Assembly (NCBI RefSeq): GCF_037042905.1
Contig: NC_087250.1
Span: 7,566,001-7,630,000 of the forward strand
Length of the DNA stretch: 64,000 bases
Direction: 5' to 3'
Source of the DNA: Lytechinus pictus
Lineage: Eukaryota
Numbering within the stretch: position 1 is the first letter of the stretch; each line of letters opens with the position of its first letter. The position numbers and the translations under genes are program-made. The notes under the pieces are model-generated. The model searched no databases and was not told the DNA's origin. It saw only the letters and a program-made list of their open reading frames with translations. Shown in pieces: positions 3,927-62,045 of this stretch.

Positions 3927-4660
3927 CCTATGGTCTGATCTGTAATAAATTGAATACAGTCCGACCTCTCTTATCCGGCCACGTTGGGACCAGCACCAAT
4001 CCGGATAAGGGATTTATCCGGATCTGGGAGACCCAATATTAAATACACACAGCTGCTGCCTACCCAACATTAGTGGCGGTAGCTACACGTTATCTATTGT
4101 AGTGGGCGTACAGACAGTATTCACTGCTGTGTCAGTGCAATTTATAGGCGGTATTTTTACGGAAATGAAATCGATCGATGGCCAAAACTGTTGGATAATT
4201 TACCTGCTAAAATGATAGAGGTATAAATCGAGCATACGTCAAAAGAAAGAGAATGACTCGATGCAAATATAGCTTATCAGAGATAGTTCACAGAGCAATG
4301 TACTTTTCAAAGATATTACAAAGTTTCACAAATTTCTATTTGTGCATACTGCAAATCCTGTTGGCTACAGATATGTAAGGATATTAAATATTCAGTCTAG
4401 CCAAAATCAAAACACTGAAATGTGCGTTCGACTCTGCAAATGTAAATGTGTAATCAAATTGTATTTAATGGAACTTGTAAATTTCATGTAATTCCGCCTT
4501 TGGGCTGACATGCATTGGTTTTTTAATAAATATCATTTTACTACTTGACTACATGAACAACTACTTTTAGTTACTAGTTATTGGTGACCTTTAAGTGTCT
4601 TTGCACTTTGAAGGGTCAACAGTACTGTCATCTATTGATTCAACCCATGAATCTACTTAC

Positions 4661-7600
4661 TAGTTATTGGTGACCTTTCGAGGGTCTTTGCACTTTGAGG
4701 GGTCAACAGTACTATCATCTGATCCTCCATTCAGCCCTCCTCCACCCGGTCCTCTGTTCCTTTGCTGGCGCTGGACGCGACTTGAACTGGACTCTCCGCT
4801 CCGGGGCGTCTCCGTCAGCTGAGATCAAGAAAATAGGGTCGGGAGGTCAGAGTTCAAAATATAAAACTTCTTGTAAAAGATGCCAAAAATCTCCCTATTT
4901 ACAGACCTTTCTTACGAAAAAGAAAACTTGTATTTCTCTCACCTTGAAACATTCAACTGTCGTCTGTCTCATGTACTCATGCGTTCTTTTCCGGCTCTCT
5001 GATGAGGATGAACTTTGACCTTTGCCCTCTGACTTGGTATGAGGTCGAAGGTCAATCTCTACTTTGAGGAAGCAGTCCCGAAACCGTAGAAGATGACTGC
5101 GGAAACATTAAGAATAATTCACACCCTTTAAAATTATGACAACTATATGAGACCTCCCAGCTGAAAACCAAAAATGAATCAGCTAAAAATCAAATTAGAG
5201 TAGATTTTAAGCTTTAAGATGCTATAAAACTTGCAAAAATTCATCTACTATTCTTGTATCACGATTCAGTAGATGATTAAGAGTAGAATTAATAACGAGA
5301 GGATATTTGCTGCTGAAGAATGAGATGTGTGCAACATTTACTCTTTTCTACGTCATCAATTATTTTCATCAAGAAATTGCTTTTTCCCCATTTCTGGCTG
5401 AAATTTCAGGACTTCATTTTCTAACAGAAGCAGAGCTGCCAACAAGAACAAGATTATTTCAATACTTTCAAAGCTGAAAATAAGTATTTTTGTGAGAAAA
5501 TCAGTATTTTCGAAGTAATGCAATAGGACAACACATAAAACTGAAACTCTAGAAATCAGTATTTGGCATGAAACTATCAGTATTCTTCTCAAATTTCAGT
5601 TCTTTTTTACTGAAAATCAGTACTACTTGGCAACTCTGCAGAAGGTTGAGGGGTTACACTTTCAGGTATTCTTGTCATGCAGTTTATAGTAGGCTTTATT
5701 AAAACCATCTTATAAACTGCGCGGCAAGCCTTGGCAGCTTTGCTGAAGGTTGAGTTGTTACACTTTCAGATATTCTTGTCATGCAGTTTATAGTGGGCTT
5801 CATTAAAACCCTTTATAAACTGCATAGCAAGATTCTCTGTAAACAGCTTATTGATAATTCTGAAGTTTATGAAAAAAAAATTATAAATAAAAATTATCTT
5901 ACAGATAGAAGGAACAGGACAGGAATTTATTTTTCATTGAGAAGGTAATTATGACAAAATATGCCAGAATTCAAGTGATATAAAACTTTTTCTTTCTGCG
6001 TGTAAGATTTGCTGGCAGCATAACCTTCATGTAATCTTTTGCTTGTCAGATTTTTGGCCAAGAATATGCTGACCCACTAATTCATCAACCCATTCATTTA
6101 GTGTTTTCATTGACACTTGTTAAGGTTCCTAATTCAACACTTTAACACTCAAGTTCATGTAACACAAGATAACATTCTTACCTTAATACTCGAACACCAA
6201 AATACATATAACACTTATCAAGGTTCTTACCTTATAAACACTCAAACACTACAATTCATGTACCAGGAGTTAAGTTACTTAACACTCTGAACACTACAAC
6301 TCATGTAACAGGTGTCAAGGATCTTCACTCGAACACTGAAATGTACATAACACATGTTAAGGTTATTACCTCAACACTTGAAGAATAGAGTTCATGTAAC
6401 ACGTGTTACCCAGATTCCTCAGTCCAGTAACACCCGGCGTTAACACCGTCCACTTCCTCTTAATCGGTGTTACAACCTTCTGTACCCGCTTCGCCACCTT
6501 CGGATGCGAGCTACCACTGGCATTAGTCTTTGTTTCAATTCTACTAGGGTCTTTGAATGATATCTCATTATCCCCTGAGTTCTCTTGACGTTTTGGCGCG
6601 GGGGCGCTCTTGGCCGGCGTCTTGTGCCCCGTGACTTTGTCGCCGTGGACGAGGCGTTTCCAGGCGAGGAATGTTGTCGAAAGCAGCATGAATCGTCGGT
6701 GTATGAGGGCGGTATGACCCTTGTCTCGCATAACAAAGTTGTCATCTCGCCTGTAAAAAAGAAGAAAGAATTTCAGCTATAAGGTTATGTTCAGTCTTGG
6801 GGATTGATGCAGTTTTCTGCCAAGATCGACCCCTCTAACACAAACTTGGCAATTAATCTTAGGGCTGATATCTATGCCTGATTACATTTATCATCTGCAA
6901 TCAAATCACTTTACAATCAATCACTAAATTTTGTGTCGAGAGCCCCTGGCAAGATATAATATCCCTTAATTTGAAAGCAATAAAGACACTTCACTTTTAA
7001 TAAAATCTTAATGCTATCCAGTTGTATTTCTTTTGTACATGTTGATTATCTCTCCCAGATATCTCTATCTCCATCACCGCTGCCCAAGGTCCCCCCCCTA
7101 TCTCTTTCTCTCTCTGTCTTTTTTCATTTCTCTGTTCCTCTCTCACCCTTCTCTCTCTCTCTCTCTTGTTATCTCTCTTCTTACTGAAAACTAAGTGGAC
7201 TTGACTCCATAGATAGAAATCCTAAAACCTCTCTATATTCCTCCCTCTTTCTACATGTACTTTTTTAATACTGAAAAATATGTTTTAGCCGACCCCATGC
7301 CATAGACAGAACCATTTACATTTTCTCTCTCTTCCCATCTCTTCTTTCTTTCTTACTCTCCCTCTCTCCCTCCACTTACCCATGACTATGTTTAAGTTGA
7401 CTGGAATCCACCGATAAGGCTCTTAAAAACCTTCTCCTTCCACCTCTCGATGCGTTTTCTTCAAACGTCTGTTTCGTGATTACGTCAAGCGTGTCACGCA
7501 AGAACTTCAGATCTCCTGTCACGTTGTCATTCAGGATGTAGTCATCGCACTCATAACTATAAGAAAAATTTACAGATACATCGTTATTGCTCATAAATGG

Positions 7601-12958: not shown

Positions 12959-12989
12959 CATAGAGATGTATACTAACTACATCTCTATG
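12959..12989. mobile_element. 31-bp palindromic mini-element with 8-bp target-site duplication
   Basis: AGGGACAC|CATAGAGATGTA-TACTAAC-TACATCTCTATG|AGGGACAC. Confidence 0.8.
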
Positions 12990-13628: not shown

Positions 13629-13637
13629 GGATGGACC

Positions 13638-13711: not shown

Positions 13712-13752
<41 letters not shown>

Positions 13753-18512: not shown

Positions 18513-18774
18513 GGGCCCCGCCTTACAAAGAGTTACAATTGATTCAATAAATCTCAACTGTATGGAAATCCATCCATACCATCATTTTTTCGACAGGAAA
18601 TCAGCTCAATCTCCTTGGTAAACAATGAGAATCTTCAAGAGAATGATGAATGTATGAATAGACATCATATCTAGAAAATATTTGGAACAAATTTGCATTT
18701 TAGATGTTGATGTTGCTGGCCGTCCATAGTTGTGGTTGATTGGATCAAGCATAACTCTTTGTAAGACGGGGCCC
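18513..18774. mobile_element. MITE family with GGGCCCCGTCTTACAAAG terminal inverted repeats (about 270 bp)
   Basis: Further copies at 19398-19673, 19676-19946, 26093-26343, 32725-32997 and about 60665-60911. Confidence 0.8.
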
Positions 18775-21539: not shown

Positions 21540-22100
21540 GTGCATCTCCAATGGCATAATCATTATCAAGTACCTGTCAATGCTTTGCTAAAGGGTTTGG
21601 GAACCATTCTATTCCTGTCTAAACAGAGAGTGGTAACCCATCTCACTTTTTAAAGATCTGCATCTCCCATGTTTTATGCACTAACAAGTGTCCTTCACCA
21701 TCTTGTGCAAGGGTTTGGTTACCATTCACAAGCTGACATATAATCAAAGACTGGTAACCCATTTCATTTCTCAGAGAGAAAGTACATCTCCATTGGTTTA
21801 TGCACAAACAAGTGTCCATCACCATCTTGTTCCAAGGTTTGGTCACCATTCAATAGCTGTCATATACACAAAGACTGGTATCCCATCTCACTTCATAGTG
21901 AGGAAGTACATCTCCAATGGCCTGTTAACTTTCCAGTGTCTCTCATTATCAAGGGTTTGGTTACCATTAAATTGCTGTCATATAAACAAAGACTGGTATC
22001 CCATCTCATTTCTTACCGAGAAAGTACATCTCCAATGGCCGATTCACTTTCCAGTGTCTCTCGTTGACTTGTTCGAGGGTAAGGTTACCATTCAATGGCT
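21540..22100 (-). repeat. Tandem array (5 units of about 120 bp) of the RING1 last exon with its acceptor
   Basis: Units align to the exon [26 protein letters not shown] and its flanks. Confidence 0.9.
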
Positions 22101-25100
22101 GTCAAGAAATAAAAGGGGATACAATCATGCATTGTTAACTTGTTGATATTTCTTGACTTTCTGTTTATTTGTTTGCTTTTATTTCTGCGTTCAAAATGAT
22201 ACACAAACCAAATGAAGACTTTGCGAAGATTTTGTGAACATCACTCATTTTGGTAAGTTCCTGCACACATCGTCAGCATAAACATAATTTTTCTTCAAAT
22301 TTTTGAAATTTAGTAATTTGCATATTCTGAAAGCCTATCATTAACTTTATAGAAGTAGCAAAGTTCACATCAAAATCCTATTATTCAAAGAATAAGAGCA
22401 TATTTATATTTCACACGACTGGTGAATCCCTTGCTTTGATTTTACGAAGCGGCATAAACCATCCTTTCTGTACTAAAGCAGTCTCCTGAATGGCGTGCAG
22501 AGGTAAAAATTCCTGACCTAGAAGTTGCGCGTATCCAGTCCGTATGCATTGACAGAATTTAAAACTTGGCAATAAAAACCATGCGCATTGTACGCATGAT
22601 TTTCTGAAGTGACATATAAAACTCTCAATATTGGAAATGAAGCACAAAAATTCAGACTGCGAACAAAATTTTGCATATATAATAAAAGGATAGAAAGTTT
22701 GCTTTAAATTGGTATAAATAATTGCTCTGGTTGCTTTCAAAGTGCGGAATTATGAGCGTATAAAAAACATTCAAACTTTGAACAAGATTATCTTGAAATC
22801 GTGTTTTGGAGACCAGCCGAGGTTTATGCCGGTTCGTAAAATCACTGAAGATATGACAAGCTTTTGAACAATGCTTGAGAAAGGGCTTTAAGGAAAGTCC
22901 TGCTTCCTGTCACACAAAGGTTAGCAATTAATCGTATGCTCGATTTTTTAGGATTGATTGTATGATGGGAGGGGGGACCTAAAGCTACACACTTTGTTTT
23001 CAAACGATAAAAACTATGCCAATTTTAATATTTGAACAAATTATCTTTCACTAATTTGTAATAAATATCCTTAACCAAGAAGAAAATGTATCACAAAACT
23101 CACTAATAATACGAAAATCCCGCCGTGCTTTCCGAACACCTCTTGATTTCGCCGCCCAATGTAGAAGGGGTCCTAAAGCTACGCACTCGATTTATCATGC
23201 AAAGAAATAGTATTTCCTGCACCTCAATTTATAAAATATGTCCGTATTATTACAGTGAAATGTGAAATTAAAGTGAATACAACTCCAAAACATTTGCTGG
23301 TTTTCTCTGCATTCAAGAATTTATTGCAGCCTCTGTAGCAAAAATGAATAGGGATCGTTCGTCACTCGGCAGTCACAGCTTCACACACAGAGCTTGAGTG
23401 CGCATTTATTTTGCCATTGAAATTGTATGCGCAATGGAGTGGTGCATAGCTTGAGGACCCCCTACCATATATTGTAGTCAATGCAATCAATCGTAACAGT
23501 ATTCTTCTAGGATGATTACTAATCTTTGTGTTACGGGGACCCTGAACTGACCTGGAATTGACATGGTGATGGACTGATGAAGATCGTGAACTCTCCGCAG
23601 TTTCCTTCGTTCTGATTGGACGAACTCTGACTATCCATTGAACCGGCATCTACGGTAGAACGCAAGAACAAACAACAAATTAATTCATGATACCTTGATA
23701 GAGGGGACAATACAGTCGTTTTCTCGTGTGTTCCCTAGATAGGAAAAATAATATAAGATTTATATAGCGCACGTATCCACCTTGTTAGGTGCTCAAGGCG
23801 CTCCTATACTACCACGGCTTTGCTAGTTGGGACCTTATGGTCAGAGCAATATTTCCCCGGCTTTTCGCAGGGACCCCGACCCCCCGCTTTTGCAGGGTAC
23901 TTTCCTTTACCAGAAGGGTGTTTCAGGGCTTACTGACTCTTTATAAGACACAAAAATACAGACTATTTGAAATTTTAGCAAATCCGTCCGTATCAGTGTA
24001 TGTCACTGATACAAATATTACTAGATCATGTGAATGGGTATGCTCCAGGCAACAAACAATTTTGTTTATCTTCGGGGGCTATTCTTCACAGCTTACTGTC
24101 TAAATCTGCTACATTGGATAAGCTTTAATGACATTGCAATGAATGGGGGTTTTCAGGGCTCCTTTTTATCAGTTTCCAGGGATCTTTTGAGGATTTCAAG
24201 GGGCAAATCCGTGTATTTTTTCCCTGAACAGTCATTATATTGACAGATGTGAATAAAAATATTTAAGCAATTTTATACGAAAATAGATTGGCTTCCTGAT
24301 CGAAATGAAATATGTGGAATAGGCTGAAAATTTGAAGATTAATTCTTTGTACACGGCTTCCTGATATCCACATGCTAAATTTTTAAGACATGTATTCAAA
24401 TTTCATTTCTTAAAGGAAAAAAAAGGAACAATGTCAAGAATTATTTGGCAAGGTGATCGAGGAAAGCAATATGTATTGCAAATTTAATGATCGTAATAAC
24501 CTCTTAGTTTGAGAGTGATCCTTACAAATTAAAAACAGGCTAGATTTTTCTTTTCCGGTAGGGCTACTGGAAACAATTAAAAACTAATAAAGGCATTTTG
24601 TATTGCCAATTTACTGATCACACTCAATAATTAGATTGAAAGCAAATTACACATTACAGAATTTTAGCTTGAGTTTGCATGTTTGTGTTATTACAAAAGG
24701 TTATGAATATTTACATCTGGGACCAATTGGACCAAGACTATAATCACAAGAAAATAGAAGTATTATGTATTGCCAATTTACTGATTGTACTACCCTCTTA
24801 GTTCGAGAGCAAACTTTATAGATAAATATTTGGCTAGGTGGAAAATAAAGCATCATGTATTGCCAATTTAGTAATCATACTAACCTTTTAGTTCAAGAGC
24901 AATCCTCATGGACAGATACTTGGCTAGGGGGTCAATAAACGCATTGTGTTGCCAATTTACAGATGACATGAATCTAATGGATGTGTTTGGCTAAATATTT
25001 GGCCTGAATGTTTATGGAATTCATATGCATTGCCAATTTAGTAATCATACTAACCTCTTAGTTCGAGAGCGATCCTCATGGATAGGTACTTGGCTAGGTG

Positions 25101-28100
25101 ATCTATTGAAGCGAGGGCCGATGTCTTGAGGTATCTGACCATGTAAGGAAACATATGGTTGACTTCATCTGGGTGAGGCTTAAAAACCAACTCTATCTCC
25201 TAGTTAGAAACGCAGAAACAAGAAAGAAAGAATGAGATATACAATGTAAAAATGCTCAAAAGATAGTGAACCCCACCAGAAAAGGAACATATATTTAAAG
25301 TCTTCAAGTTCTGCCATGTTTTAGATATTTAATTGCGAAGTCAGGTGATAAAATATTACATTCAGTGAAGTTTGTTTCTCTGGGCTCGCCAAAAGTTTTA
25401 AGTGTTGTTGTCCACATTTAACACTCAGCAGGAAGGACGACATTTTGTATTGGGGTTAACTAACTTCTGGTGGGGTTCACTAACTATTGAGCAGAACTGT
25501 ACATGTCAAACCTGTCAATAAAAAGGTGAAGTTCACCCTGATGAACAACAATTTTAGTAAAAATATGGAAAAGGTTTGACAAAATCCACAAAGAATGCCG
25601 GAGATATTTTTTTTTGCAGGAGTTTCTGCATTTCATTCATAAATCAATAACAAATGGAAAAAAAATGATACAATAACAACGACATAAATGAGTACATTTT
25701 TGTGTGACAATCGAAAATATAAATAATGTATAAGACTGAAAACTACATAAATGAAGCATGTAAAATAGTAAAGTGGGTAAAAATGCAGGGGCCAGCTATA
25801 ATAAGCAGGTAACTGCTTGAAACAATAGCAGCTTGAAACAATAGCAAACATATGAATGTTTCAGATTTGACTTTGTGATATTAAATATGAGCAGCCACCC
25901 TATATGTTATCAATGCCATAAATTCAATTTTTTATGGTTTATGATGACTAGATATATTTTCCTTAATAAAGAAACGTGTATGAAATGATGTGTCTGATAA
26001 TATAATGAATGCACTAGAAAAAATCATTTTCAATTTACGGAGGACATGTCGCCGTTGGAAAAGCAGCGCCTATGGTCTCTCTCTGCTATCCAGGGCCCCG
26101 TCTTGCAAAGAAATGCGAATGATCCGATCAACCACAATTATGAAAAGCCAGTAATGCCAACATCTAAATGTATTCTAGATATAATGTATATTCATACATC
26201 CATCAATTTCTTGAAAATTCAGTGAGCTCCTCTTTGCTTAAAAAGGACATTGTGCAGCTTTCCTATAAAAAAAATTATGACATTGATGGATTTCCATACA
26301 GTTGAGATTGATCAGATCAATCGTAACTCTTTGTAATACCAGGTACAGGTGGGATAATAAACTGTTTATATTGACTTACATTAGATGGGTCTGGTAAGTC
26401 AATACTACCTTCCCCCTCTCCCTCCACATCTCCACAGCTACTGGAATCATCTGATGTTCTAGCCCGTTTCATCGCCTAAAAAATAAAAATAACAGAGGAA
26501 TGAATGTGAATGTCATAAACATACATGGCCCTACAAAATAATAATGAGAGTTACATTTATATAGCGCTTCATACATTGATACATTGGTTTCTAAGCGCTT
26601 AACATTGTAATTATTATTTTTTTTAAATAAGCAGCAATTAATGTTATAGAAGAATCCCCCTCGCTGAGCAGGGCCCCCGAGACAGAGGCAAATAAAATAT
26701 TTTATAAAATAGGTGTATTATTTCTAGCATCGCGATTGGCCAATATGCGTCACATGACATCCAACTTTTTTGTGCACTGCATGGCAGTGCAAAAGGTGCG
26801 CAATGAAAATTGACATTGCACGCTCAAGCAGACTAGTGCGGTAGAAGTCCAACAAAACTGTACTGTAAATTTTTAAGAATTTGTTTCTGTGTTGCTATTT
26901 TATAAAACAAATAATGCACTTGCTTTGTCGTGAGTAAAAGTAATTGCAGAGAAAGCTAGGTTTCTTCAGATGGTGCACACTGGGCACTCGCCGCCAGCGG
27001 CTCGTGCACAGTGCGGCACCTATCTAAAGAAACCTTGCATGCTTTGCATTTCCACTAACGCACTCGGCTGCATGCATTAGTTGTATAGTAAAAGAAAACA
27101 CAAAGAAAGCTACCAAATAAATGGATTCAAATAGGTGAATGTGAAAATCAGAACGCGTTCGAAATTTAAAAAAAAGAATGAAAATCAACAAAGGTACAAG
27201 AAAAATGAGAGAGAAAGGGGCAGGACAACAGTTAACTTTTACAACATAACGAACTCTAATCTCTGATGCAAACACTTTTAGCATTATTTTTCAGCAAAAA
27301 TTCTTTGTGCCAAGATCGTGGTACAGTGCACCTGCAGCAGCTGGGCGCTGCGCTGCAAGCCAGCAAAGTGAAGAGACACTGCGTGCTGGTAGAAGATTTT
27401 ACGTTGTAAGAGCGCATTTGATTGGCCAATTTGGCTCAGTAGGGGAGTGGCTTAAAGGGAGTTAATCGAGCGCTAATCGTTTTCAGATGACAAATTTTGA
27501 GGTCTATTAGCGCTCCATTAAATGGGTAACTTTACAAGGAAAGTTATGAGGAAACTCCTCCATGCAGAGTATTGAAATTAGACAACAAGACTACAATGTT
27601 CGGCGAGCCCAGAGAAAAAAAAAGCTTCAATAAATTAAATATTTCATCACCCAGGGCTCGACACTAGCGCCGGTCCGACGGTCCCAGACCGGTAAAAATC
27701 ACTGTCGGGCCGGTAGATTTTCAGAAATAGCAAGATTTACTGGTCCGACAAGACCAGTAAGAAAATATCATTGTCGGGCCGGTAATTTTTCCAAAAATAG
27801 CAAGATTTATGGGTCCGACATAAACAGTAATAAAAACCATTGTTGGGCCAGTAACTTTTCCAGAAATGGTCAAATTCACTAGTCCAACATAAACATAAAA
27901 AATATTCCATGACTCAAATTGCAAACCATTTTCCTCCCGTTAAATTTGGTCATTCACACACAGAATACACACAGAATGAATCGCATGCAATTTTTACTAG
28001 GGTAACATACAGTGTACATATGGCTAGCCAGCCACACAGCCCACATGGTGAATTTTCTACTGGCTGCACGAACGAAGCTTGGCGAAGCTTGGCAAACCTC

Positions 28101-28812: not shown

Positions 28813-28849
<37 letters not shown>

Positions 28850-45056: not shown

Positions 45057-48000
45057 ATGGAGTGCTATGATAAGATCACAACATTGGGCCAAGGGGGTGG
45101 CGGTGCAGTCTATCTGGTCAGGCACCAAATAACCAAAAAGTGAGTATGATTGATTTGAGAACCAAACAATTTTGTTATGAATTTGCTATCGACTAATCAA
45201 ATGCTTTGATTTTAGTAGCTTACAACAGTAGCTTCTAGCTTTCCATCAAAATTAAAAGATAAATCTTGATTATTCCATGCACGTCTTGATTGATTTGTTT
45301 GCAGGGGCAATATTTGAAAGCAACTGTTACATTTGTGTATAGTAACAAGGCCCATACTGCTTTTCTTTCTCTCCTTTTTTTTTCTCATATTAGTTTCTGT
45401 ACAGAGATCTTTTGACACAAAAGATAAAGTTTAATTGTAAGTTGAGTGCAAACTATGCCACAACAAGTACAATTTTAAATATTGATTTTATCTAGTAGAT
45501 AAACTTTTTGTACTCGAAATAGGATTGTGGGATGAGAATAAAAAAGATAGTAGACCAAGTGGTAATTAACCATTTAATCTTGAGATTGATGTTATTTTTG
45601 ATATATTTTTTTCACTAGATTACTTGCTTTGAAGAAGATTCAGTTGGATGAGAAAAGAAAGACAAGAACCAGAGATGCAGTCGAGAGAGAAGCAAAGTAA
45701 GAATACTCACTATCCCCTACCTACCCCACCCCCATCCCACTGATGAGACAGAAGCCAAACCCCTCCCCCACCCCAGCCTACTGAGACAGAAGCAAAATGC
45801 CTCCCCCACCACCCCATCCCACTGAGACAGAAGCTAACCCACCCCGACCTACTGAGAGAGAAGCAAAGTAGGAATACTCACTGTCCCCTTACCTCTCCCC
45901 ATCCTACTGATGAGACAGTTCTAAGCCTAACCCCCCCCCCCACCCCAACCTACTGAAAAAGAAGCAAAGTAAGAATACTCTCTCTCCCCTTACTACCCCA
46001 CCCCCATTCCACTGATGAGACAGATGCCAACCCCCCATCCTACTGAGAGGAAAGCATCCCCTTGCCTACCCCACCCCCATTCCTCTGAAACAGGAGCCTA
46101 ACCCCTCCCCCACCTCCATCCAACTGAGACAGAAGCCAAACCCCTCCCCCACCCCAGCCCACTGAGACAGAAGCAAAGTAGGAATACTTTCTACCCCTCC
46201 CCTACCCACCCACGAAGAGGGTTACATGTAAGCAAAGTAAGAATAGTAAATTCCCCCTCCCCCACCCTACCATCCCATCCCACCCACTTAGAAAGAAGCA
46301 AAGTAAGAAATGAATGCTTATTACCCCTCCCCTACCCCATCCCACTAAGAGAGAAGCAAAGTAAGAATAGACACTACCCCCCCCCCTCACCTCAGCCAAC
46401 TGAGAGAGAAACAAATTCAAGAATGCTCATTACCCCTCCCAAACCCGGAGACACTGAGAGAGAAGCAAAATGAAAATACTCCCCACCCCACCCCTACTTT
46501 AGAGACAAGCAAAACAAGAACAGTCACTACCCCCATGCCAACTGGAAGAATGTGTCATGAAATGGTGGTATTTTTTACAAGTCATATATCTTTAAAAAAT
46601 AACTGACTCCTTGTTTTACAAGGCTTTGGCCATTCCTGACTGACCTGAATGATTGCAATGGTTTGATTAGCAAATAATCACTGATCACCAATATTTAATC
46701 CTGGGGGTGTTTCACAAAGATTTAAGTATGACTTAGAGTCGCACTTAAATACCGAATTGCGTACGGTATGAAAGGCTTGATCGCATTGGTCAGATCGTGT
46801 CATGAGGACGCGCACTAATGTGTAACTATCAATAAAATCGCGCGTTGCATATCATGTACGCGTCGGTATTTAAGTGCAACTTAAGTCATACTTAAATCTT
46901 TGTGAAACACCCCCCCCCGGTCATATAGTTGATAACTGCCTTTAAACAATGTTGAAATGTATTATTAATCACGACGATGTTATGATTTTAATCACGTTCA
47001 CATTCCAGAATCTTGGCCCAGCTGAGGCATCCCCATATCGTCACCTATCATGATTCTTTCTTCGAAGAGGTTCCAGAGTCCGTCTATCTCTGCATAGCTC
47101 AGGTAGGTTTGTCTGTTTGTCTACCCCTTGTCTACTTGACTTTCTGTTTGTCTGTCTTCATGTATATCTTTTACTGTGAGCCTATCTATATGTCTTCTGA
47201 CAGTCTGCCAGTCTCTTGTCTATCCGTCAGTTTGTCTGTCTGACTGCTTGAATATCTGTCTGTCTACCTGCTTATCTTGTTTATTATCATCTTAATCACT
47301 GTCAACATCATCATCATCATTACCACCACCACCACCACTATCATCATCATCGTCATTATCATCATCATCATTATTATCACCACCACCACCACTATCATCA
47401 TCATCGTCATTATCATCATCATCATTATTATCACCACCACCACCACTATCATCATCATCGTCATTATCATCATCATCATTATTATCACCACCACCACCAC
47501 TATCATCATCATCGTCATTATCATCATCATCATTATTATCACCACCACCACCACTATCATCATCATCGTCATTATCATCATCATCATTATTATCACCACC
47601 ACCACCACTATCATCATCATCGTCAATATCATCATCATCATTATTATCACCACCACCACCACTATCATCATCATCGTCATTATCATCATCATCATTATTA
47701 TCACCACCACCACCACTATCATCATCATCGTCATTATCATCATCATCATTATTATCACCACCACCACCACTATCATCATCATCGTCATTATCATCATCAT
47801 CATTATTATCACCACCACCACCACTATCATCATCATCGTCATTATCATCATCATCATTATTATCACCACCACCACTTCCACCTACATCATCATTTTCATC
47901 ATCATAACCATCATTTTCATCATACTAACCATCATTTTCATCATCATCACCATCATCATCATCACCTCCATCATCACCATCATCATCGTCATTATCATCA

Positions 48001-51000: not shown

Positions 51001-54000
51001 CACCCGCCTGATCAACCCCGCTAGGCCAGGTAATCCCCGCTGTCACAATTTTACCTCCACAGGCCAGATTATGAGCGTTGAGCCAAGGACAAAATGATAA
51101 ACAACAGCTGTGCTATTACGTAAGACTTCTCTGCCTGTAGTAGGACCTTTGGAATGAAATTATTGTATTCGATATTTAATCACGTTTTCAAAGGCATATT
51201 GTATTCAGAAATCCAATGTTAGTCCATTTTAAATTTCGAACGAAGAAAATCGACCTCGAAATAAGGAAAGTAAGTCAATTAAAATGACGGCATGCTTTGC
51301 AGGGACCGCGCTCATGCTGTTGTGTTATCTTCGGACCGAGGTCAAGAAACAGGTGTTTTGATACTTAAATTGCTTGCTTGGGACAGTTATGGTTTGTCGT
51401 ACTTGGAGAAGATAATTGATTGAGGGAAACTGGGGTATAGTGTTCTCAAATGGAGGTTTTCGTAATGGACCAAGTTTTATTGTGAAAACAGTTTTTGCAC
51501 TTTACGCTTTTGCCCTTCATATAAAGGCCATTAAATTAAAAACACCTTCTCTCCTTGCAGTAAGCTCTGAATATAAGGCAAATCAACTTTTGTGGGAAAA
51601 AACTGCCTTGGAATCACTTTTGGTCATTGGCAATCACCTTCATCATATTGGAATAATGCACAGTCATTTCCATTTTATTTAGCATTCATACACAATAGAC
51701 CCTTTATTGTTACCTCCTTCATAATGTTGATAGTTCTTATTTGATTATAATTTGTTAATTTGCCAGTATCTATTAATTTCATGTATTTTTCTATATTCTG
51801 TCAACTTTGTATGTGTCAGTCGCTGGACTGTTTTGCAATGTCTTTAATGCAATAAACCAAATTGAATTGAATTGAATTGAATTGAGTGATGGTAGTTTCA
51901 ATCCTTTTCAATAGATCATACAGTATTTCTAATGCAATGTACATAGCGTGTGAAAGAGCCTAGAGATTAAAAACGATATGGACAAATAAATCCTCTTCTT
52001 ACATCCAGGCTCTTGGTTGTCTCTTGTACGAGGTGTGTGCGTTTGAGCCGGCGTTTGATGCTCACAATCTTCTTAGTCTGTATTACAAGATCGTCAAAGG
52101 TGATAACCCGGTAAGTATAGCACCAAATAAGCTTGTATATTGTCACTTTGGGATACCCCAAGGCTCAGTTCTTGGGCCCCATCTATTTTCTATTTCATTG
52201 TACTGCATATGATTATGGTATGATGGATAAAGATGATTTGCAGTTAGACATTACATTTTAACTGTCGTATGAGGTGGGTGCGTTTGAGCCTGCATTTGAT
52301 GCTCATAATCTTTTTTGGTCTCAATTACAAGATCATCATTTTTACTTATGGGAAATTGTTTATCTCTGAAAACAAGGACTTTACATTTTAACACAATTCC
52401 CTTGACTTTACTATGATTAATTTTCAGATTATTCCGTCCATGTACTCTACCGACCTTCAAGGATTATTAGCGTTCATACTAGAAAAGGATCCAGATAAAC
52501 GTCCAAGGTAAGTACTACAAATTATGTTCAATCTTACAATTAATCATACAATCAATTTTGCAATCAGTTTTAAAGTCTTTTTTGGACACTAGCTGCGTGG
52601 TTTGAATCCCAACATGGCCTAGCATCCTTTGGCAAAGCGTCAAGCCTCACTTTATTACTCTCCACCCAGGTGTTAAATGGGTACCTGGTAGGATGGGTTG
52701 GGGGAGGGGTGGGTGGTCCCGATGATTTTTCAAGTTGTAAAATAGAAAAAGAGGAAGAAAATGTAAGAAGAGAATTGTGATTCTTTTTCCCTTTATTCAG
52801 TTGGAAAAAAAATTATATCACCTTTACAAGGTCTTACCCCCCCCCCCCCTTATACCAAAATTCAAAGAGCTTGTCTGTATGGACTTCATTTTACATCTTA
52901 GTTATTCATTCATAGTGGCTGATCATATAGATAACATAAATTACTCTCGGGCCTTTTCGGTTAAAGTGGAGACAATGGCTGAGTAGGGATTTGAACTCAC
53001 AACCTCACAATCATAAGTCTAGTGCTCAAACCACGAGACAGCATGACCCTATTAATTGGATTGTATTATTTTTATTCCAGTGCTACAACGATACTCTCAC
53101 AGGATTACATGCAAACCCACCTAAGTAACTTTATTGCAGAAAAAGAGCTTCTGCAGCAGCAGCTTGCAACGACAAAAGCCACCAGACCACCGACAAGCTC
53201 CTCCCCCATAGCGAGGTCAAAGGTCACCAGTGTCGCAAACACATCCAGGTAGGTTTTGCCTTGAAAGGACATTAAAAAATAATAATAGCTGGATTTATTA
53301 AGCGCTTTTTGCCTGAGGATACAAAGCGCTGCTATTATTACCCTGGCTTTAGCTGTGCTGCCTTATAGGCGCTGAAACGTTCAAGGAATTTCTTCCTACC
53401 CTTCACCTCACCTGGGTTGAGTGCAGCACAAAATAGGTAAATTTCTTGCTGAAGGAAAATACGTCATGGCTGGGAATGGAGCCCACATCCCTCAGAATGA
53501 AAGACGAGAGTCATAACCACTAGACCACGATGTCACCATGTTAATGTAAATGTTATTTACCTTGGGCAGTGTTCATAAGGCTGTTCTTAAGCATGACTTT
53601 ATGCACCATTTGTTGTGCTAAATGAGGTTACCCAACGTAGTGCAAGAGACTATCCAGTTACCAAGATTATATATATATATTATATGTGGAGCGTTGTGGC
53701 CCAGTGGATTAGTCTTCTGACTTTGAAACAGAGAGTCGTGGGTTCGAATCCCAGCCATGGCGTAATTTTCTCCAGCAAGAAATTTATCCACACTGTGCTG
53801 CACTCAACCCAGATGAGGTGAATGGGTACCCGGTAGGAAGAAATTCCTTGAATGCTCTGAGCGCCTAGGCAGCCCAGCTAAAGCCGGGGTAATAATAATA
53901 GCAGGGCCCGCTGGGAGAACAGTTTTCAGAACTGAAGTGGCTTCCCTGGGTAAATATGCCTATATTATTATTATTATTTTCTTATTTCTGTTTTTATTAT

Positions 54001-57000: not shown

Positions 57001-60000
57001 GAAACGCCCCCTTTCCCCATTAGGATTTCACTTGGCTTCCGTTCATCTCTCATGTATTTTTTCGTTCATTTATCAGATATACCAGAGGAGCTAGAGGCGG
57101 AGGACGAAGGAGAAGAGAGCTTGATAGAAAGAAGAACTGAAAGAACAGAAGAAGGAGAAGAGGAGGAGTATGCAAGTGATTTTGAAGATGATGATGAGGT
57201 TCGTTGGCCAATGATGTCAGTCCTTATCATTTTGAGAGTTTTTAATCATATGTTAGGGTGAAGTGTTGATACGGTGATTACCACGATCCTTTAACTAGAG
57301 TCTCGTTGTGATTCCCTCACCCAGGGGCAGATTCAGGATTTTCCAAAAAGGGGGGGACACATTTTTCTGATGAAAATTTGAATTCGAGGTCATTTCGTCC
57401 TCTGTGAAAAATTTTACAAGCAAAAAAAGGTCCTCACTTTCAAAAGGGAGGGGGCACACTTTGGTGAAAAAGGTACATATACATTTAAACATTTTATTAT
57501 GGCTAACAAAAGGGGGGTTCGAGCCGGCTATGCCCCCCCCCTGGATCCTCCACTGCCCTCACCATTGGTGATTTTGAAGTTTGGTGATCGTAACTGGGTT
57601 CAGAAGGATGATATCGATCGCGTTATCAATATTTCGTATCTCATATCTCAACTTTACATGTGAAGTCTGGACAGTGAAAGTGAATTCGGGGTAGAAATAG
57701 TAGTAAAATCTTATTGTGTCGCATGCAAAAGTTAAATCACTTCAAGGATTCAAAAGAGTAAATACTATTGCTCATTGAAATATATAAAGCTCTAATGATT
57801 TGTTCTCATCTCAACTGCAACAGCTAGTTTTTCGGTGATGTTTCATCGTCATCTTGAGGTCGCCAACACCAACACCAAACTTGAAATCATGATTTTCCCA
57901 GTCCCTGGGATTGGTGTTGGCGAATGAGGAAATTACATGTAGATCGTCAACACCAGCTGTAATGCTCGGTTTAGCAGACGAGGTTCAACACCAGTGCTCA
58001 ACACGAACTGCTGGAAATGTGTAATATTTTCAAAGGTCAATCTCAACACCTGCGTCATTTCATGTACAGAGTTCTGGCTCTTTAGTGGCTGGTGTTGGTG
58101 TTGATGTTGCGGCTCGTGAGTGTTGCCACAACGCCAGATTTCAAACCCTACTTTACATCATCCTATGTATATCTCTTTGACTAGGTTCTTCAGGTTATTC
58201 TGAGCAATGCAAGGACTGCGGCCAACGTTGATGTTCAGAATAGTGATGGGGACGATAGCTTTATAAATTCTTGTATTATTACATTTCTTTGACTAGGTTC
58301 TTGAGGATATTCTGAGCAATGCAAGGACTGCGGCCAATGTTGATGTTCAGAATAGTGATGAGGACGATAGCTTTATAAATTCTTGTATTATTACATTTCT
58401 TTGACTAGGTTCTTGAGGATATTCTGAGCAACGCAAGGACTGCGGCCAATGTTGATGTTCAGAATAGTGATGAGGACGATAGCTTTATAAATTCTTGTAT
58501 TATTGCATTTCTTTGACTAGGTTCTTGAGGATATTCTGAGCAACGCAAAGAACTGCGGCCAATGTTGATGTTCAGAATAGTGATGAGGACGATAGCTTTA
58601 TAAATTCTTGTATTATTACATTTCTTTGACTAGGTTCTTGAGGATATTCTGAGCAACGCAAGGACTGCGGCCAATGTTGATGTTCAGAATAGTGATGAGG
58701 ACGATAGCTTTATAAATTCTTGTATTATTACATTTCTTTGACTAGGTTCTTGAGGATATTCTGAGCAACGCGAGGACTGCGGCCAATGTTGATGTTCAGA
58801 ATAGTGATGAGGACGATAGCTTTATAAATTCCTGTATTATTACATTTCTTTGACTAGGTTCTTGAGGATATTCTGAGCAATGCAAGGACTGCGGCCAACG
58901 TTGATGTTCAGAATAGTGATGAGGACGATAGCTTTGAAGATTCCACCAACCTCTCAGATGACATCACAAGCTGTCGACAACTTTTAGCAGAGTGAGTACT
59001 GTAGAGTAGCCTTGTACAGGTAAAAGAATGTAATTGCAGCAAACAATTATTTCTTGAGAACGTCTTTTTTAATATCAAGGTTAATTGTCATCACATTAAC
59101 ATAGATCTAGATCTGGTAAAGTAATGTAAACTTAATTTAGTGAAATCATGAAATTTTAGCTGAAAAGCAAAAACTCTGAAGATTACTAACGCTGGAAAGC
59201 ATATGAGGGACAGTGTACCAATATTGCTTGGAAAGAGACCCGACATTTGATGGAATTCTGTACTTATTTTGCTAATTTCTCAGCAATTAAGCATTTCTTT
59301 CCAGAGTCATTTGACACATATTTTTTTATTCATACATACAAACACTTTTGTAGTCATTTTATTGGATTCTGATAGAACTAATCTAGATTTTTACCAAAAC
59401 TGTCATTAATATGTTAGCGAGAAGTCTTTCATCAAAGCAAAACAGGAAAAAACAACTTTTGTTTGCTTGAACCCAACAAGCCCTATTAATAGTGAATGCT
59501 TAGGTCTGCTAGGAGATTGTATCTTAACGTTATGATTTTGTATTTCTTCTTTCTACAGTGAATGCAGAGGTGTTCTGGGAAATGATATCTTCTCTGAGAT
59601 TGAATCTAAAATTCGGGAGAATCGAGGGAAAGATCTTGATCCCGATCAACTAAGGTGAGTTGCTTGAACTCTTTGTGCGCCGGGCCATGATCCCCTGTGT
59701 GCTTGAATTTTTCAGCGAGGGATCAGGAGCAGTGAATGAAATAGACTTGCTCAATTCAACTTGCTATGACTTTTCACTGCAGTATTTTGAGGGGAAATGT
59801 TTCACGGCAAAGTTGTAGAGAATTTCACAAGCTTTCTGACTGTATAATATGACTAGTATAATATAATAATATGACTACAATAATATAGCGCTTACAAACA
59901 ATGAGTATTAAGCACTTTAGAAATGTTGTTTATCATTATTATGTAATTTTTTTTTTTGTAATGATAAGAAATTTGGTAAATAATGCCTAATTTCACACAT

Positions 60001-61182
60001 ATATATGGTATTATTGTGGCAAAGGATAAATACAGTGGATTGTTTGTTTGAGCGTGATATGTGAAGTTTGCGCGGCACCTAGTGTGTATTGGTGCGAAGT
60101 ATGCATGGAAAGAGCTAAAGGGATTGAGTAACTTTGTGGAATTTTGCAAAAATCTGAGTTGTGTGGATCTGTATGATGTCAGTGCATGCGATAATGTGTC
60201 AAGAGGAAACCCTGAAAATTTATTACATAGGCATTATGACATGCTTCACAATAAGAAAAAAAGTGATAATTTTCCTTCATAGCCTATAGTGTTTAATTTA
60301 AGTGTCCATAGAGTCGCTTGATACTGTAGTTTTCATTGTGGCAGCAATTAAGCGACCAATCAGCTGGAAAAAAAATGTTGGGTTATATTATTCCTGCGTG
60401 ACTTTTTAAGTTTTGTAATGATGAATTATATATTAGCTGCAAGAGAAATATATTTGTAGGTCCTGAGTGAAGTTGAACAGAGAGACGAGGAGAAAAATAA
60501 ATAGAACTTGAGAGAGAGAAAAAGAGAAAAGATGAAAGAAACAGAGGAATAGAGAGAGTGAGAAAGAAGAAGGATATTAATCCTGATTAGCGGAGTTGAG
60601 TTGGGTTGGGTTCAGTTATTTCAGAATTTGTACACTCTGCGCACATGTGGACCATTAACTACTAGGTTAGATCCGATCAACCACAACTATGGAAAGCCAG
60701 CAACGCCAACATCTAAAATGCATGTTTGTTCAAAATGATTTCTAGATATGATATATAACTCTTATATTCATTGTTTTCTTGAAAATTTGGTGTGTTCACT
60801 TTTATATAAAGGACAGTGTGCAAATTTTGTGTATGAAAAATCATGACACTGATGGATTACCATATTGTTGAGGTTGATCTGATCGATCGAAACTCTTTGC
60901 AAGATTGGGCCAAGAAGTCTACCAAACGCACATTAACAGAATTATAGCATCTTTAGCTGGAGAAGTTAAATCTGGTGTTGGGCTATGATAAAGTATTTGT
61001 GAAATCTATGCTTTGCTTTTTATCTATTTTCTCTCTTTGTGTTTTTTTTTCTTTCCTGCAGACTTCAGTTTGAGGAAGCCATTGGCAGTGAAAGAATGGA
61101 AACATGCTACCTTCTTAGCGAACTTCTATCTGAGGTTGATGATACTCAAAGTAGAAAGATGGGAACATTACCAGTCTCATGA
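45057..61182 (+). CDS. NIMA-related (Nek family) Ser/Thr kinase, about 586 aa, with an acidic linker and C-terminal tail
   Basis: Exons 45057-45139, 45619-45696, 47009-47102, 48215-48360, 49215-49267, 50436-50563, 52009-52110, 52428-52507, 53081-53248, 55390-55538, 55775-55981, 57077-57198, 58858-58991, 59559-59654, 61062-61182. Motifs [58 protein letters not shown] are typical of Nek kinases. Exact paralogue not assigned. Confidence 0.92.
45680..46520 (+). repeat. Degenerate C-rich tandem array seeded at the Nek exon 2 donor
   Basis: GAGAGAAGCAAAGTAAGAATAC followed by CCCCACCCC tracts, repeated with variable unit length. Confidence 0.85.
46703..46913. mobile_element. MITE (GGGGTGTTTCACAAAG termini)
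   Basis: About 30-bp perfect inverted termini; relatives near 9320-9485, 18170-18355 and 50847-51005. Confidence 0.8.
47320..48155. repeat. ATC/ACC trinucleotide tract with a 54-bp higher-order unit (about 10 copies to 47875)
   Basis: CGTCATT recurs every 54 bp (47351, 47405 and onward). Confidence 0.9.
53277..53535 (-). mobile_element. tRNA-derived SINE, head-to-head with the 53688 copy
   Basis: Similar to the 30090 copy throughout, with a degenerate B box. Confidence 0.75.
53688..53977 (+). mobile_element. tRNA-derived SINE
   Basis: A box TGGCCCAGTGG, B box GGTTCGAATCC, core AATGGGTACC and (TAT)n tail. Confidence 0.85.
58179..58936 (+). repeat. Tandem array (112-bp unit, 7 copies) containing the Nek exon 13 acceptor and exon 5' part
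   Basis: GACTAG|GTTCTT starts at 58179, 58291, 58403, 58515, 58628, 58740 and 58852. Confidence 0.95.
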
Positions 61183-62045
61183 TATATTTAGTAATTTGAA
61201 AGAATGGTAACCTGCTATCATCTTAGAGAATTTCTATCAGATGTCATGATACAGAAACTAGAAAGATTGAATCGCTACCAGTCTTATGTTATGTATTCAG
61301 TGATTTGAGAGAATGGTAACATGGTCCCTTCTGAGTGAGATTCTATCAGACATTAATGATACAGAAACTAGAAAGATGGGATCGCAACCGGTCTCATGAT
61401 ATTCATTCAGTGATTTGAGAGAATGGTAACCTGTTATCGTCTAAGTGAATTTCTATCAGATGTTAATGATACAGAAACTAGAAAGATGGGATCGCTACCA
61501 GTCTTATGACATGCATTCAGTGATTTGAGAGAATGGTAGCATGGTCCCTTCTTAGTGAGCTTCTATCAGATGTTAATGATACAAAAACTACAAAGATGGG
61601 ATCGCTACCAGTCTTATGACATGCATTCAATCATTTGAGAGAATGGTAGCATGGTCCCTTCTTAGTGAGCTTCTATCAGACATTATTGATACAGAAACTA
61701 GGAAGATGGGATCGCTACCAGTCTTATGACATGCATTCAATGATTTTAGAGAATGGTAACATAGTCCCTTCTTAGTGAGATTCTATCAGACATTAATGAA
61801 ACAGAAACTAGAAAGATGGGATCGCAACCAGTCTTATGACATGCATTCAATAATTTGAGAGAATGGTAACATGGTCCCTTCTAAGTGAGATTCTATCAGA
61901 CATTGATGATACAGAAACTAGAAAGATGGGATCGCTACCATTCTTATATTATGTATTCAGTGATTTGAGAGAATGGTAACATGGTTCCTTCTTAGTGAGA
62001 TTCTATCAGACATTAATGATACAGAAGATTGGGTTCACACCAGTC
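61091..62045 (+). repeat. Tandem array (about 110-bp unit, about 9 copies) starting in the Nek last coding exon
   Basis: GAATGG(A/T)A recurs at about 61094, 61202, 61311, 61421, 61531, 61641, 61751, 61861 and 61971. Confidence 0.92.

What the first reader, a model, noticed from the sequence alone, without database searches (positions are those of the whole stretch)
4570..62045. Recurrent tandem duplication at exon edges in all three genes
Seen: at least nine of the 31 coding exons have adjacent copies of exon or junction sequence. USP44: 4570-4710 and 6110-6410. RING1: 21540-22100, 24440-25100 and 31826-32560. Nek: 45680-46520, 52265-52335, 58179-58936 and 61091-62045. A weaker case lies at 7550-7780. 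Seven arrays include a splice site; two copy exon sequence only. The functional copy is always at one end of the array (first for donor-side, last for internal acceptor-side arrays), and divergence ranges from near-identical to heavily decayed, so the process has recurred over time. Inference: either a duplication mechanism focused on exon edges (transcription- or splicing-coupled), or genome-wide duplication filtered by selection. Either way the spliceosome must handle many decoy sites.
Basis: partly seen in the sequence, partly recalled or inferred. Interest (0 to 1): 0.85.

Follow-up and report, generated by a model that had tools for sequence, protein, structure and literature searches.

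The report
Sea urchin exon-edge tandem repeat arrays
In three neighbouring sea urchin genes, nine of 31 coding exons are flanked by tandem copies of their own edge, usually including the splice site; single cases of this kind are known in human genes, but such a density is unusual and may point to a bias in where small duplications arise.

Summary
The window is Lytechinus pictus DNA with USP44-like (6 coding exons in the window), RING1/2 (10) and a Nek kinase (15). Four arrays copy a donor junction, three an acceptor junction and two exon sequence only. Copy identity runs from 68% to 100%. Most decoy splice sites are intact, and every decoy use I modelled meets a premature stop. RNA depth over the Nek exon 13 decoy array is about 1% of exon depth. 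The L. variegatus Nek model ends in a read-through of a decoy unit, so that array junction is shared by both species.

Minisatellites whose end unit spans an exon-intron boundary are known in human genes (F7, CBS, IFI6, LMNB2, PDGFA). "Functional copy at one end" follows from geometry. In this window the arrays sit on exon edges 2-5 times more often than uniform placement predicts (P from 1e-5 to 0.02, depending on the null). One window cannot separate a bias in where duplications arise from differences in persistence. No genome-wide test was possible.

The parts
4568..4725 (-). USP44-like exon 6 (4818-4661), donor-side duplication. There are two units of about 86 nt, each holding the last ~58 nt of the exon, the donor and ~28 nt of intron. 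The decoy donor reads GTAACT against the functional GTAAGT.
   Evidence: 91% identity
6113..6410 (-). USP44-like exon 4 (6750-6370), donor-side array. The functional junction is followed by 4 decayed copies of ~50-60 nt. Two decoys keep AG|GTAAGA and one has lost the GT.
   Evidence: 72-81% identity
7610..7656 (-). Marginal case. One 47-nt copy of the intron end and acceptor of USP44-like exon 3 (exon start 7556).
   Evidence: 70% identity, E = 1.7e-5 in a 520-nt search space
21540..22125 (-). RING1/2 last coding exon (22098-22006), array of 5 units of 118-124 nt. Each unit holds the acceptor, the 30 codons, the stop and ~25 nt of 3'UTR. The first unit is the functional one and the later units lie downstream of the stop.
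   Evidence: 80, 74 and 68% identity to the functional unit
24469..25110 (-). RING1/2 exon 8 (25199-25055), donor-side array of ~90-nt units. Two decoys keep the GT and two have lost it.
   Evidence: 73-89% identity
31823..32592 (-). RING1/2 exon 5 (31881-31768), acceptor-side array of 4.5 units of 156 nt. Each unit holds ~100 nt of intron, the acceptor and the first 56-60 nt of the exon. The last unit is functional and 4 decoy AGs are intact.
   Evidence: two decoys 94.9% to the functional unit and 97.4% to each other
45683..46534 (+). Nek exon 2 (45619-45696), donor-side compound array with periods of about 41, 101 and 171 nt. The last 14 nt of the exon plus the donor are repeated; at least 6 decoys keep AAA|GTARGAAT and 2 have lost it.
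52262..52338 (+). One 77-nt copy of the interior of Nek exon 7 (52009-52110). It lies in intron 7, 151 nt after the exon end, and carries no splice site.
   Evidence: 83%; no similarity beyond the copy
58147..58944 (+). Nek exon 13 (58858-58991), acceptor-side array. Six decoy units of 112 nt precede the functional unit; each holds 38 nt of intron, TTTGACTAG| and the first ~74-78 nt of the exon. There is a higher-order period of 337 nt.
   Evidence: interior units 96-100% identical to each other; RNA depth 0.23-0.28
61089..62069 (+). Nek last exon (61062-61182), array of about 9 units of 108-110 nt. It starts 27 nt inside the exon, includes the stop, and continues through the transcribed 3'UTR.
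   Evidence: decoy-decoy 78-93.5%, decoy-functional 75-79%; strand-specific RNA depth about 7-9

Best explanation
These are ordinary minisatellite-type local duplications that happened to start on a piece of a coding exon. I think they work as follows.

Birth. A short segment of 50-170 nt is duplicated head to tail. The likely routes are replication slippage, unequal sister-chromatid exchange or template switching at short direct repeats.

Turnover. The array then expands, is partly homogenised and decays like any tandem array.

Tolerance. Such an event is tolerated at an exon edge because a tandem duplication of only part of an exon always leaves one terminal copy joined to the rest of the exon.

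Splice-site choice. The spliceosome uses that terminal copy. At donor-side arrays it takes the exon-proximal, most upstream donor, as shown experimentally for human F7 intron 7. At acceptor-side arrays it takes the acceptor lying within exon-definition distance of the true donor.

Cost of errors. Any use of a decoy brings in a premature stop, so the product would be removed by nonsense-mediated decay or make a truncated protein.

Shown here: the arrays, their locus-specific origin, the exon map, the intact decoy sites, the premature stops, the low RNA depth over one decoy array and the shared array junction in L. variegatus.

Inferred: the duplication mechanism, the rule of splice-site choice and the role of nonsense-mediated decay.

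On this reading, the excess at exon edges in this window comes from small numbers, from a neutral target that is smaller than raw intron length (much intron is young transposon sequence), and from somewhat better persistence next to a conserved copy.
For: Origin of the units. None of the nine arrays has a copy elsewhere in the window (0 outside hits each), so the units come from the adjacent exon and not from a mobile element. The exon ends involved are conserved: Nek exon 2 is 100% identical at protein level to S. purpuratus, and the RING1/2 last exon is 100% identical to L. variegatus.

Signs of slippage. The unit junctions of the two youngest arrays sit at short imperfect direct repeats. 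In RING1/2 exon 5 the pair is CTAGCAT and CTAGTAT. In Nek exon 13 it is CTTTGAAGATTCC and CTTTATAAATTCC (read from the sequences).

Array dynamics. Interior units of the Nek exon 13 array are up to 100% identical, while the outermost decoy is 84-88% to the others. There is a 337-nt higher-order period. In the Nek exon 15 array the decoys resemble each other (78-93.5%) more than the functional copy (75-79%).

Age range. Identity runs from 68% to 100% across arrays.

Exon map. It is exact for the two same-species proteins. A full RING1/2 reading frame was rebuilt.

Premature stops. Read-through of all 4 donor-side junctions meets a stop within 0-2 codons. All 10 upstream decoy acceptors modelled (6 at Nek exon 13, 4 at RING1/2 exon 5) give a stop within 15-36 codons.

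RNA. In two rRNA-depleted RNA runs, the bin 58402-58867, which lies almost wholly in the decoy array, has a depth of 0.23-0.28. Exons 7 and 11 work out at about 19-20, back-calculated from bins holding 102 and 207 exon bases. The 3'UTR array (61198-62100) is transcribed, strand-specifically, at a depth of 7-9.

Precedent. Human F7, CBS, IFI6 (6-16), LMNB2 and PDGF minisatellites have a first unit spanning the exon-intron boundary. In F7 only the most upstream donor is used (PMC1557585, passages read).
Against: - Uniform placement does not predict the concentration on exons. The expectation is 1.8-3.9 of 15 against 9 observed (P = 1e-5 to 0.004).
- A test limited to sequence within 100-300 nt of exons should be free of the young-transposon problem. 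It still gives 9 of 10 against 3.2-5.4 expected (P = 2e-4 to 0.02).
- Detection bias is probably small. TRF finds 6 of the 9 arrays on its own, largely from decoy-decoy similarity.
- The splice-site choice rule and nonsense-mediated decay were not tested. RNA was laid on part of one gene only (48150-62100). The Nek splice joints were not among the 15 joints printed out of 1354.
Confidence: 0.5

Rival explanations
1. Exon-linked birth bias. Small tandem duplications arise preferentially at exon-intron boundaries in this genome.

Two candidate causes, both inferred:
- RNA polymerase pauses at splice sites or at exon-positioned nucleosomes. This could stall replication forks and provoke microhomology-mediated template switching.
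- In a very polymorphic genome, exons are islands of homology. Recombination intermediates could stop at their edges and re-prime out of register.

The arrays would then be a mutational footprint of gene structure.
For: - 9 of 15 locus-specific duplications overlap coding exons, which make up 6.3% of the window (4053 of 64000 nt). P = 1e-5 to 0.004.
- The near-exon test gives 9 of 10 against 3.2-5.4 expected.
- All three genes show the pattern, on both strands, at both donor and acceptor sides, and at very different ages.
- Unit junctions show short direct repeats.
Against: - There is one window and 15 events, and no genome is held for a wider count.
- Two of the nine contain no junction at all (Nek exon 7 interior copy and Nek exon 15).
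- The amount of exon in a unit varies from 14 to 94 nt, so no fixed breakpoint relative to the splice site is seen.
- My literature searches found no report of such a bias in any species. That fits either novelty or absence.
- The size of the neutral target is uncertain. In the 14 kb that was laid, most depth bins contain multi-copy sequence.
Confidence: 0.35
2. The arrays are kept by selection because they do something. Three possibilities:
- Decoy sites tune expression through unproductive splicing followed by nonsense-mediated decay.
- Repeated exon sequence supplies splicing enhancers.
- The RING1/2 last-exon copies serve as alternative terminal exons.
For: - The L. variegatus Nek model P0242 (505 aa) ends in ...[12 protein letters not shown]. 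That is exactly the read-through of a decoy unit, so a decoy acceptor may be used there and the array junction is shared by two species.
- Three downstream copies of the RING1/2 last exon keep an acceptor-like CAG, an open frame of 28-30 codons and a stop at the same position. The functional copy against the nearest copy gives pN/pS = 0.22.
Against: - The control fails. Copies of Nek exon 15 lie in a 3'UTR with no acceptor, yet 4 of the 7 complete copies also keep an open frame ending at the equivalent stop. Frame retention over 30 codons is therefore uninformative.
- pN/pS = 0.22 rests on 15 differences. About 0.5 is expected anyway when only one lineage is constrained. The other five pairs give 0.44-0.90.
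- Several decoy sites are destroyed.
- RNA depth over the Nek exon 13 decoys is about 1% of exon depth.
- P0242 may simply be an annotation error.
Confidence: 0.1
3. Assembly artefact. The arrays are over-expanded or mis-joined repeats in the reference assembly.
For: No DNA run of the same organism was laid on the arrays. Copy numbers therefore rest on the assembly alone.
Against: - Copies differ from each other by 0-32%, with unit-specific substitutions and indels. Assembly errors do not look like that.
- Independent RNA reads cover the 3'UTR array.
- A 576-nt DNA contig from a run labelled as another organism spans Nek exon 15 and several following units. Contigs of that run also lie on the exon 13 decoy array.
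- A protein model from L. variegatus carries the exon 13 unit junction.
Confidence: 0.03

Closest known systems
Human F7 intron 7 minisatellite (37-bp VNTR whose first unit spans the exon 7-intron 7 boundary)
   Same: Both are tandem units whose first copy holds the end of the exon and the donor, so the donor is reiterated in the intron. The exon-proximal donor is the one used. The four donor-side arrays here (USP44 exons 4 and 6, RING1/2 exon 8, Nek exon 2) have this layout (PMC1557585 passages).
   Different: The F7 unit holds only 4 bp of exon and its pseudo-sites are strictly identical. Here the units hold 14-58 nt of exon and most copies have diverged. Polymorphism and splice-site choice were not tested here.
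Other human boundary minisatellites listed in the same paper: CBS intron 13, interferon-induced 6-16 (IFI6), LMNB2, PDGF intron 4
   Same: They have units of tens to about 100 bp, 10-25 copies and reiterated donors. In some genes one or two pseudo-sites are also used (PMC1557585 introduction).
   Different: All are donor-side and occur one per gene. Here there are also three acceptor-side arrays and two arrays running into 3'UTRs, with 2-4 arrays per gene.
Internal (partial) gene duplications, Gao and Lynch 2009 PNAS (recalled; seen only in the reference list of PMC3443670; paper not held)
   Same: Both are small tandem duplications inside genes that include parts of exons and may duplicate splice sites.
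   Different: As I recall it, that work is about duplication rates and the creation of introns. I could not check whether it reports an excess at exon edges.
Intron gain by tandem duplication of an AGGT-containing exon segment (Rogers model; Hellsten et al. 2011, PMC3265369, search listing and abstract start only; review PMC3443670, passages)
   Same: Both involve tandem duplication of exon sequence that yields extra usable splice sites.
   Different: In that model a new intron is created between two copies of an exonic AGGT. Here existing junctions are copied and no new intron is evident. The Nek exon 7 copy abuts neither splice site.

Membership tests
Exon-intron-boundary minisatellite (F7 intron 7 type) | Head-to-tail tandem units of roughly 10-350 nt | tested here: met
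   TRF periods of 41-156 nt and 337 nt. Unit alignments. The Nek exon 7 copy is single and displaced, so it does not meet this.
Exon-intron-boundary minisatellite (F7 intron 7 type) | A terminal unit spans the exon-intron junction, so the splice site is reiterated | tested here: met
   Met for 7 of 9 arrays: 4 donor-side and 3 acceptor-side. Exon ends come from exact protein mapping and the copies.
Exon-intron-boundary minisatellite (F7 intron 7 type) | The authentic site is the copy joined to the exon; pseudo-sites are silent or little used | tested here: inconclusive
   Annotated proteins use the exon-joined copy in all cases. RNA depth over the Nek exon 13 decoys is 0.23-0.28 against about 20 on exons. 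No RNA was laid on the other six arrays, and nonsense-mediated decay could hide decoy use. The L. variegatus model P0242 uses a decoy.
Exon-intron-boundary minisatellite (F7 intron 7 type) | Copy number varies among individuals (VNTR) | not testable with these tools
   No second haplotype or long-read DNA of the species was available.
Tandem exon duplication giving alternative or mutually exclusive exons | A whole exon with both of its splice sites is duplicated | tested here: not met
   Internal arrays carry one splice site and only part of the exon. Only the RING1/2 last coding exon is copied whole with its acceptor. Use of those copies was not tested.
Intron gain by tandem duplication of an exonic AGGT | A new intron bounded by the two copies of a duplicated exonic AGGT | tested here: not met
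   The arrays copy pre-existing junctions. The Nek exon 7 copy lies 151 nt from the donor and 89 nt from the acceptor, with no further similarity around it.
Dispersed repeat or satellite that captured exon sequence | Further copies of the unit elsewhere | tested here: not met
   0 hits outside the array for each of the nine, within the 64-kb window only. The two clusters that did have outside hits were dropped as transposon copies.

The most novel reading that the evidence does not exclude
In Lytechinus, exon-intron boundaries are hot spots for the birth of minisatellites. Small tandem duplications start on exon edges several times more often than on equally old neighbouring intron, because of something tied to gene structure. 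Candidates are polymerase pausing at splice sites or exon nucleosomes colliding with replication, or recombination intermediates stopping at the edges of exon homology islands in a hyper-polymorphic genome. If the 29% of exons seen here (9 of 31) were even a tenth as common genome-wide, the genome would hold thousands of natural decoy-splice-site arrays, on both the donor and the acceptor side.
Probability: 0.35. Interest if true: 0.8.

Novelty: new variant of a known kind. Interest (0 to 1): 0.58.

Why it matters
How the spliceosome picks one site among identical neighbours has been studied on a handful of human minisatellites, all on the donor side. This locus offers natural series of 1-6 intact decoys at both donors and acceptors, of graded age, in an animal whose embryos can be injected and sequenced.

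If the excess at exon edges holds genome-wide, it would be a new kind of mutation bias linked to exon structure. It would bear on how exon ends, alternative splice sites and terminal exons evolve.

There is also a practical point. Such arrays mislead gene prediction. The L. variegatus Nek model appears to stop inside a decoy unit.

Tried and rejected
- Whole-genome test. No genome is held for this window, so the enrichment could be tested only inside the 64 kb.
- Earlier notes of the scan. There were none for this genome or for look-alike stretches. A word search gave only an unrelated fungal mitochondrial case. One call failed on word count.
- Other urchin DNA. A metagenome scan with the Nek exon 11 peptide matched 595 stretches by pattern, but none was a relative by tblastn. 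A first try with a 44-residue query was too short for the tool.
- Sequencing runs. No listed holder is on record as RNA in the index. The raw RNA runs were laid directly instead.
- Read laying at 85% likeness was swamped by intronic transposon reads. Only 15 of 1354 joints were printed, and none was a Nek splice joint. Decoy use was therefore judged from depth only.
- Tandem origin of Nek intron 7. I asked whether intron 7 and exon 8 came from a 241-nt tandem duplication. There is no similarity beyond the 77-nt copy; the tail score of -38 compares with a shuffle mean of -31.
- RING1/2 last-exon copies as alternative exons. Frame retention and pN/pS = 0.22 looked suggestive, but the 3'UTR copies of Nek exon 15 keep their frames as well. 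I dropped this as evidence.
- Gao and Lynch 2009 could not be read.
- Literature searches for an exon-edge excess of tandem repeats, in sea urchins or elsewhere, found no such report. Most subscription journals are not in the library.
Full report
WHAT THE WINDOW IS

The longest exon-like frames match sea urchin proteins at 100% identity.
- USP44-like protein of Lytechinus pictus: P0001, 704 aa.
- A L. pictus kinase named only LOC129263873: P0241, 586 aa. Its relatives are named Nek4-like in L. variegatus and Nek6 in S. purpuratus.
- RING2-like proteins: P0124 of L. variegatus, 99% identical.

Pfam confirms the domains: UCH plus zf-UBP for the first, a protein kinase domain for the second, and RING finger plus RAWUL for the third.

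EXON MAP

- P0241 maps exactly onto 15 exons on the + strand, 45057-61182.
- P0001 residues 1-365 map onto 6 exons on the - strand, 9615-4661. The rest of the gene lies beyond the window's left end.
- For RING1/2 I refined eight exons against P0124 and found the two small 5' coding exons at 42158-42144 and 36885-36852. The ten exons join into an open 1197-nt coding sequence.

THE OBSERVATION

TRF reports 44 rows. tblastn with the three protein sets shows extra coding-like copies next to five exons.

This gave 17 clusters of local direct duplication. Two of them (13988-14525 and 18723-19948) have further copies elsewhere in the window and are transposon copies lying side by side. None of the nine has a copy elsewhere in the window.

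Unit-by-unit alignments give the anatomy listed under parts.
- Four donor-side arrays: USP44 exons 4 and 6, RING1/2 exon 8, Nek exon 2.
- Three acceptor-side arrays: RING1/2 exon 5, Nek exon 13, and the RING1/2 last coding exon, which is copied whole with its acceptor and stop.
- Two without a junction: a single displaced copy of the interior of Nek exon 7, and an array that starts 27 nt inside the last Nek exon and fills the 3'UTR.

AGE AND DYNAMICS

Identity to the functional copy runs from 68% (RING1/2 last exon, fourth unit) to 98% (Nek exon 13).

In the exon 13 array, interior units are up to 100% identical to each other. The outermost decoy is only 84-88% to the others, and TRF sees a 337-nt higher-order period. 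In the exon 15 array the decoys resemble each other (78-93.5%) more than they resemble the functional copy (75-79%). This is what arrays that keep exchanging and re-expanding look like.

The unit junctions of the two youngest arrays lie at short imperfect direct repeats. The pairs are CTAGCAT and CTAGTAT, and CTTTGAAGATTCC and CTTTATAAATTCC (read). This fits slippage or microhomology-mediated switching, but it is an inference.

DECOY SPLICE SITES

- All 6 decoy acceptors of Nek exon 13 read TTTGACTAG|G, as the real one does.
- All 4 decoy acceptors of RING1/2 exon 5 keep the AG.
- At least 6 decoy donors after Nek exon 2 keep AAA|GTARGAAT, and 2 are destroyed.
- The older arrays are mixed.

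The modelled consequences are uniform. Read-through of each of the four donor-side junctions meets a stop within 0-2 codons. Each of the 10 upstream decoy acceptors gives a stop within 15-36 codons.

RNA AND OTHER INDEPENDENT DATA

I laid two rRNA-depleted RNA runs, one contig set of the same organism label and one DNA-like run of another organism label on 48150-62100 at 85% likeness.
- Intronic transposons dominate the output, and the Nek splice joints were not among the 15 joints printed.
- Depth is still informative. The bin 58402-58867, which lies almost wholly in the exon 13 decoy array, has 0 and 0.23-0.28 on the two read orientations.
- The bins holding exon 7 (102 nt) and exon 11 (207 nt) have 4.2 and 8.9-9.3, on one orientation only. 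That corresponds to about 19-20 over the exons.
- Steady-state use of the nearest decoy acceptor is therefore at most a few per cent. Nonsense-mediated decay could hide more.
- The 3'UTR array (61198-62100) is covered at 7-9 on the same orientation only, so it is transcribed.
- From the other-organism run, a 576-nt contig spans exon 15 and several following units with 8-14% differences. Contigs of that run also lie on the exon 13 decoys.

Independently, the L. variegatus protein model P0242 ends in ...[15 protein letters not shown]. This is letter for letter the read-through of a decoy unit across the array-specific junction in this window. That junction therefore exists in both Lytechinus species. 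Either decoy use or a prediction error put it into a protein model.

IS IT MORE THAN CHANCE?

Coding exons are 6.3% of the window.
- Whole arrays placed at random: 3.9 of 15 expected to touch an exon (P = 0.004).
- Single units placed at random, which is the fitting null if arrays grow in place: 1.8 expected (P = 1e-5).
- Within gene bodies the count is 9 of 12, with similar P values.
- Masking the 19.7% of the window that is repeated within it changes little: P = 7e-5, or 0.014 after doubling.

The main worry is that much intron is young transposon sequence, so the real neutral target is smaller than it looks. In the laid region most depth bins contain multi-copy sequence.

A test limited to sequence near exons avoids this. 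Of the 10 arrays lying within 200 nt of a coding exon, 9 overlap it against 4.0 expected (P = 0.0014). The result is P = 0.02 at 100 nt and 2e-4 at 300 nt.

Results on the other side:
- The sample is 15 events in one window.
- Low-complexity arrays that the filter hid do not touch exons and would enlarge the denominator. Examples are 47306-48121, 28403-29593 and 30707-30958.
- A TRF-only count gives 6 of 11 arrays with periods of 40 nt or more, after dropping the transposon pair. This is my count.

WHAT IT MOST LIKELY IS

I read the arrays as ordinary minisatellite-type partial-exon duplications. They are tolerated because one terminal copy always stays joined to the rest of the exon. The remaining copies are handled by splice-site choice and by decay of mis-spliced RNA. 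I put this at about 0.5.

The excess at exon edges is real in this window. I give about 0.35 to a true exon-linked bias in where such duplications arise. A selected function gets about 0.1. The one hint, open frames in the RING1/2 last-exon copies and pN/pS = 0.22 for the nearest copy, is undercut by the 3'UTR copies of Nek exon 15, which keep their frames too. An assembly artefact is unlikely given the diverged units and the independent data above.

COMPARISON WITH WHAT IS KNOWN

Minisatellites whose first unit spans an exon-intron boundary, so that the donor is reiterated, are described for human F7, CBS, the interferon-induced 6-16 gene, LMNB2 and PDGF. In F7 only the most upstream donor is used (PMC1557585, abstract and passages read).

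Tandem duplication inside genes is also discussed as a source of new introns. I read passages of the review PMC3443670. For Hellsten et al. 2011 I saw the search listing only. Gao and Lynch 2009 is recalled and was not held.

What I did not find, in seven full-text searches, is any report of the following:
- acceptor-side arrays of this kind;
- several such arrays per gene;
- a statistical excess of tandem duplications at exon edges, in sea urchins or elsewhere.

The library lacks most subscription journals, so this is not proof of absence.

VERDICT

Each array is a new member of a known kind. The density, the acceptor-side cases and the possible exon-edge bias make the set a new variant worth a genome-wide test.

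Noticed in passing
window 3-2366 (-): A 788-aa open frame runs off the left end of the window. It has an integrase zinc-binding domain, an integrase core and a SCAN-like (retroviral capsid-like) match. It is an LTR-retrotransposon polyprotein sitting in the USP44 intron after exon 6.
   Followed up: partly
window 38025-40181: A 949-nt inverted repeat, 99% complementary, with a 259-nt spacer. It is made of two head-to-head Tc1/mariner-type transposase copies (DDE_3 plus HTH_Tnp_Tc3_2) in RING1/2 intron 1. Local G+C is 53% against about 38% around it.
   Followed up: partly
window 47306-48121 (+): A CAT/CAC-rich array of 15 units of 54 nt in Nek intron 3, ending 94 nt before exon 4. It creates a 370-codon His/Tyr-rich open frame that runs straight into the exon, which is a trap for gene finders.
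   Followed up: no
window 30707-30958 and 28403-29593: An (AATTC)n-like microsatellite of about 250 nt ends 6 nt from the acceptor of RING1/2 exon 6 (exon start 30701). A 1.2-kb TTTC-rich low-complexity tract lies in the next intron downstream, between exons 6 and 7.
   Followed up: no
window 18723-19948, 26092-26343, 32722-32998, 60670-60904: A dispersed repeat of about 280 nt beginning GGCCCCGTCTTACAAAGA..., with copies 75-88% alike. It lies in intergenic DNA and in introns of RING1/2 and Nek. Very many RNA and DNA reads end at its edge at 60670.
   Followed up: partly
P0242 (L. variegatus Nek4-like, 505 aa) against window 58185-58857: This public protein model stops with the read-through of a decoy repeat unit ([10 protein letters not shown]) and lacks the last three exons. 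The cause is probably a prediction misled by the array, or real use of a decoy acceptor.
   Followed up: partly
window 21974-21888, 21856-21764, 21732-21643 (-): Three downstream copies of the RING1/2 last coding exon keep an acceptor-like CAG, an open frame of 28-30 codons and a stop at the same position. Their two indels are in frame. The Nek 3'UTR copies behave alike, so this is probably chance.
   Followed up: yes
window 44385-44691 and 56032-56495: Two further locus-specific tandem duplications lie close to exons without touching coding sequence. One is 366 nt upstream of the Nek start-codon exon, possibly in a 5'UTR or promoter. The other starts 51 nt after the Nek exon 11 donor.
   Followed up: no
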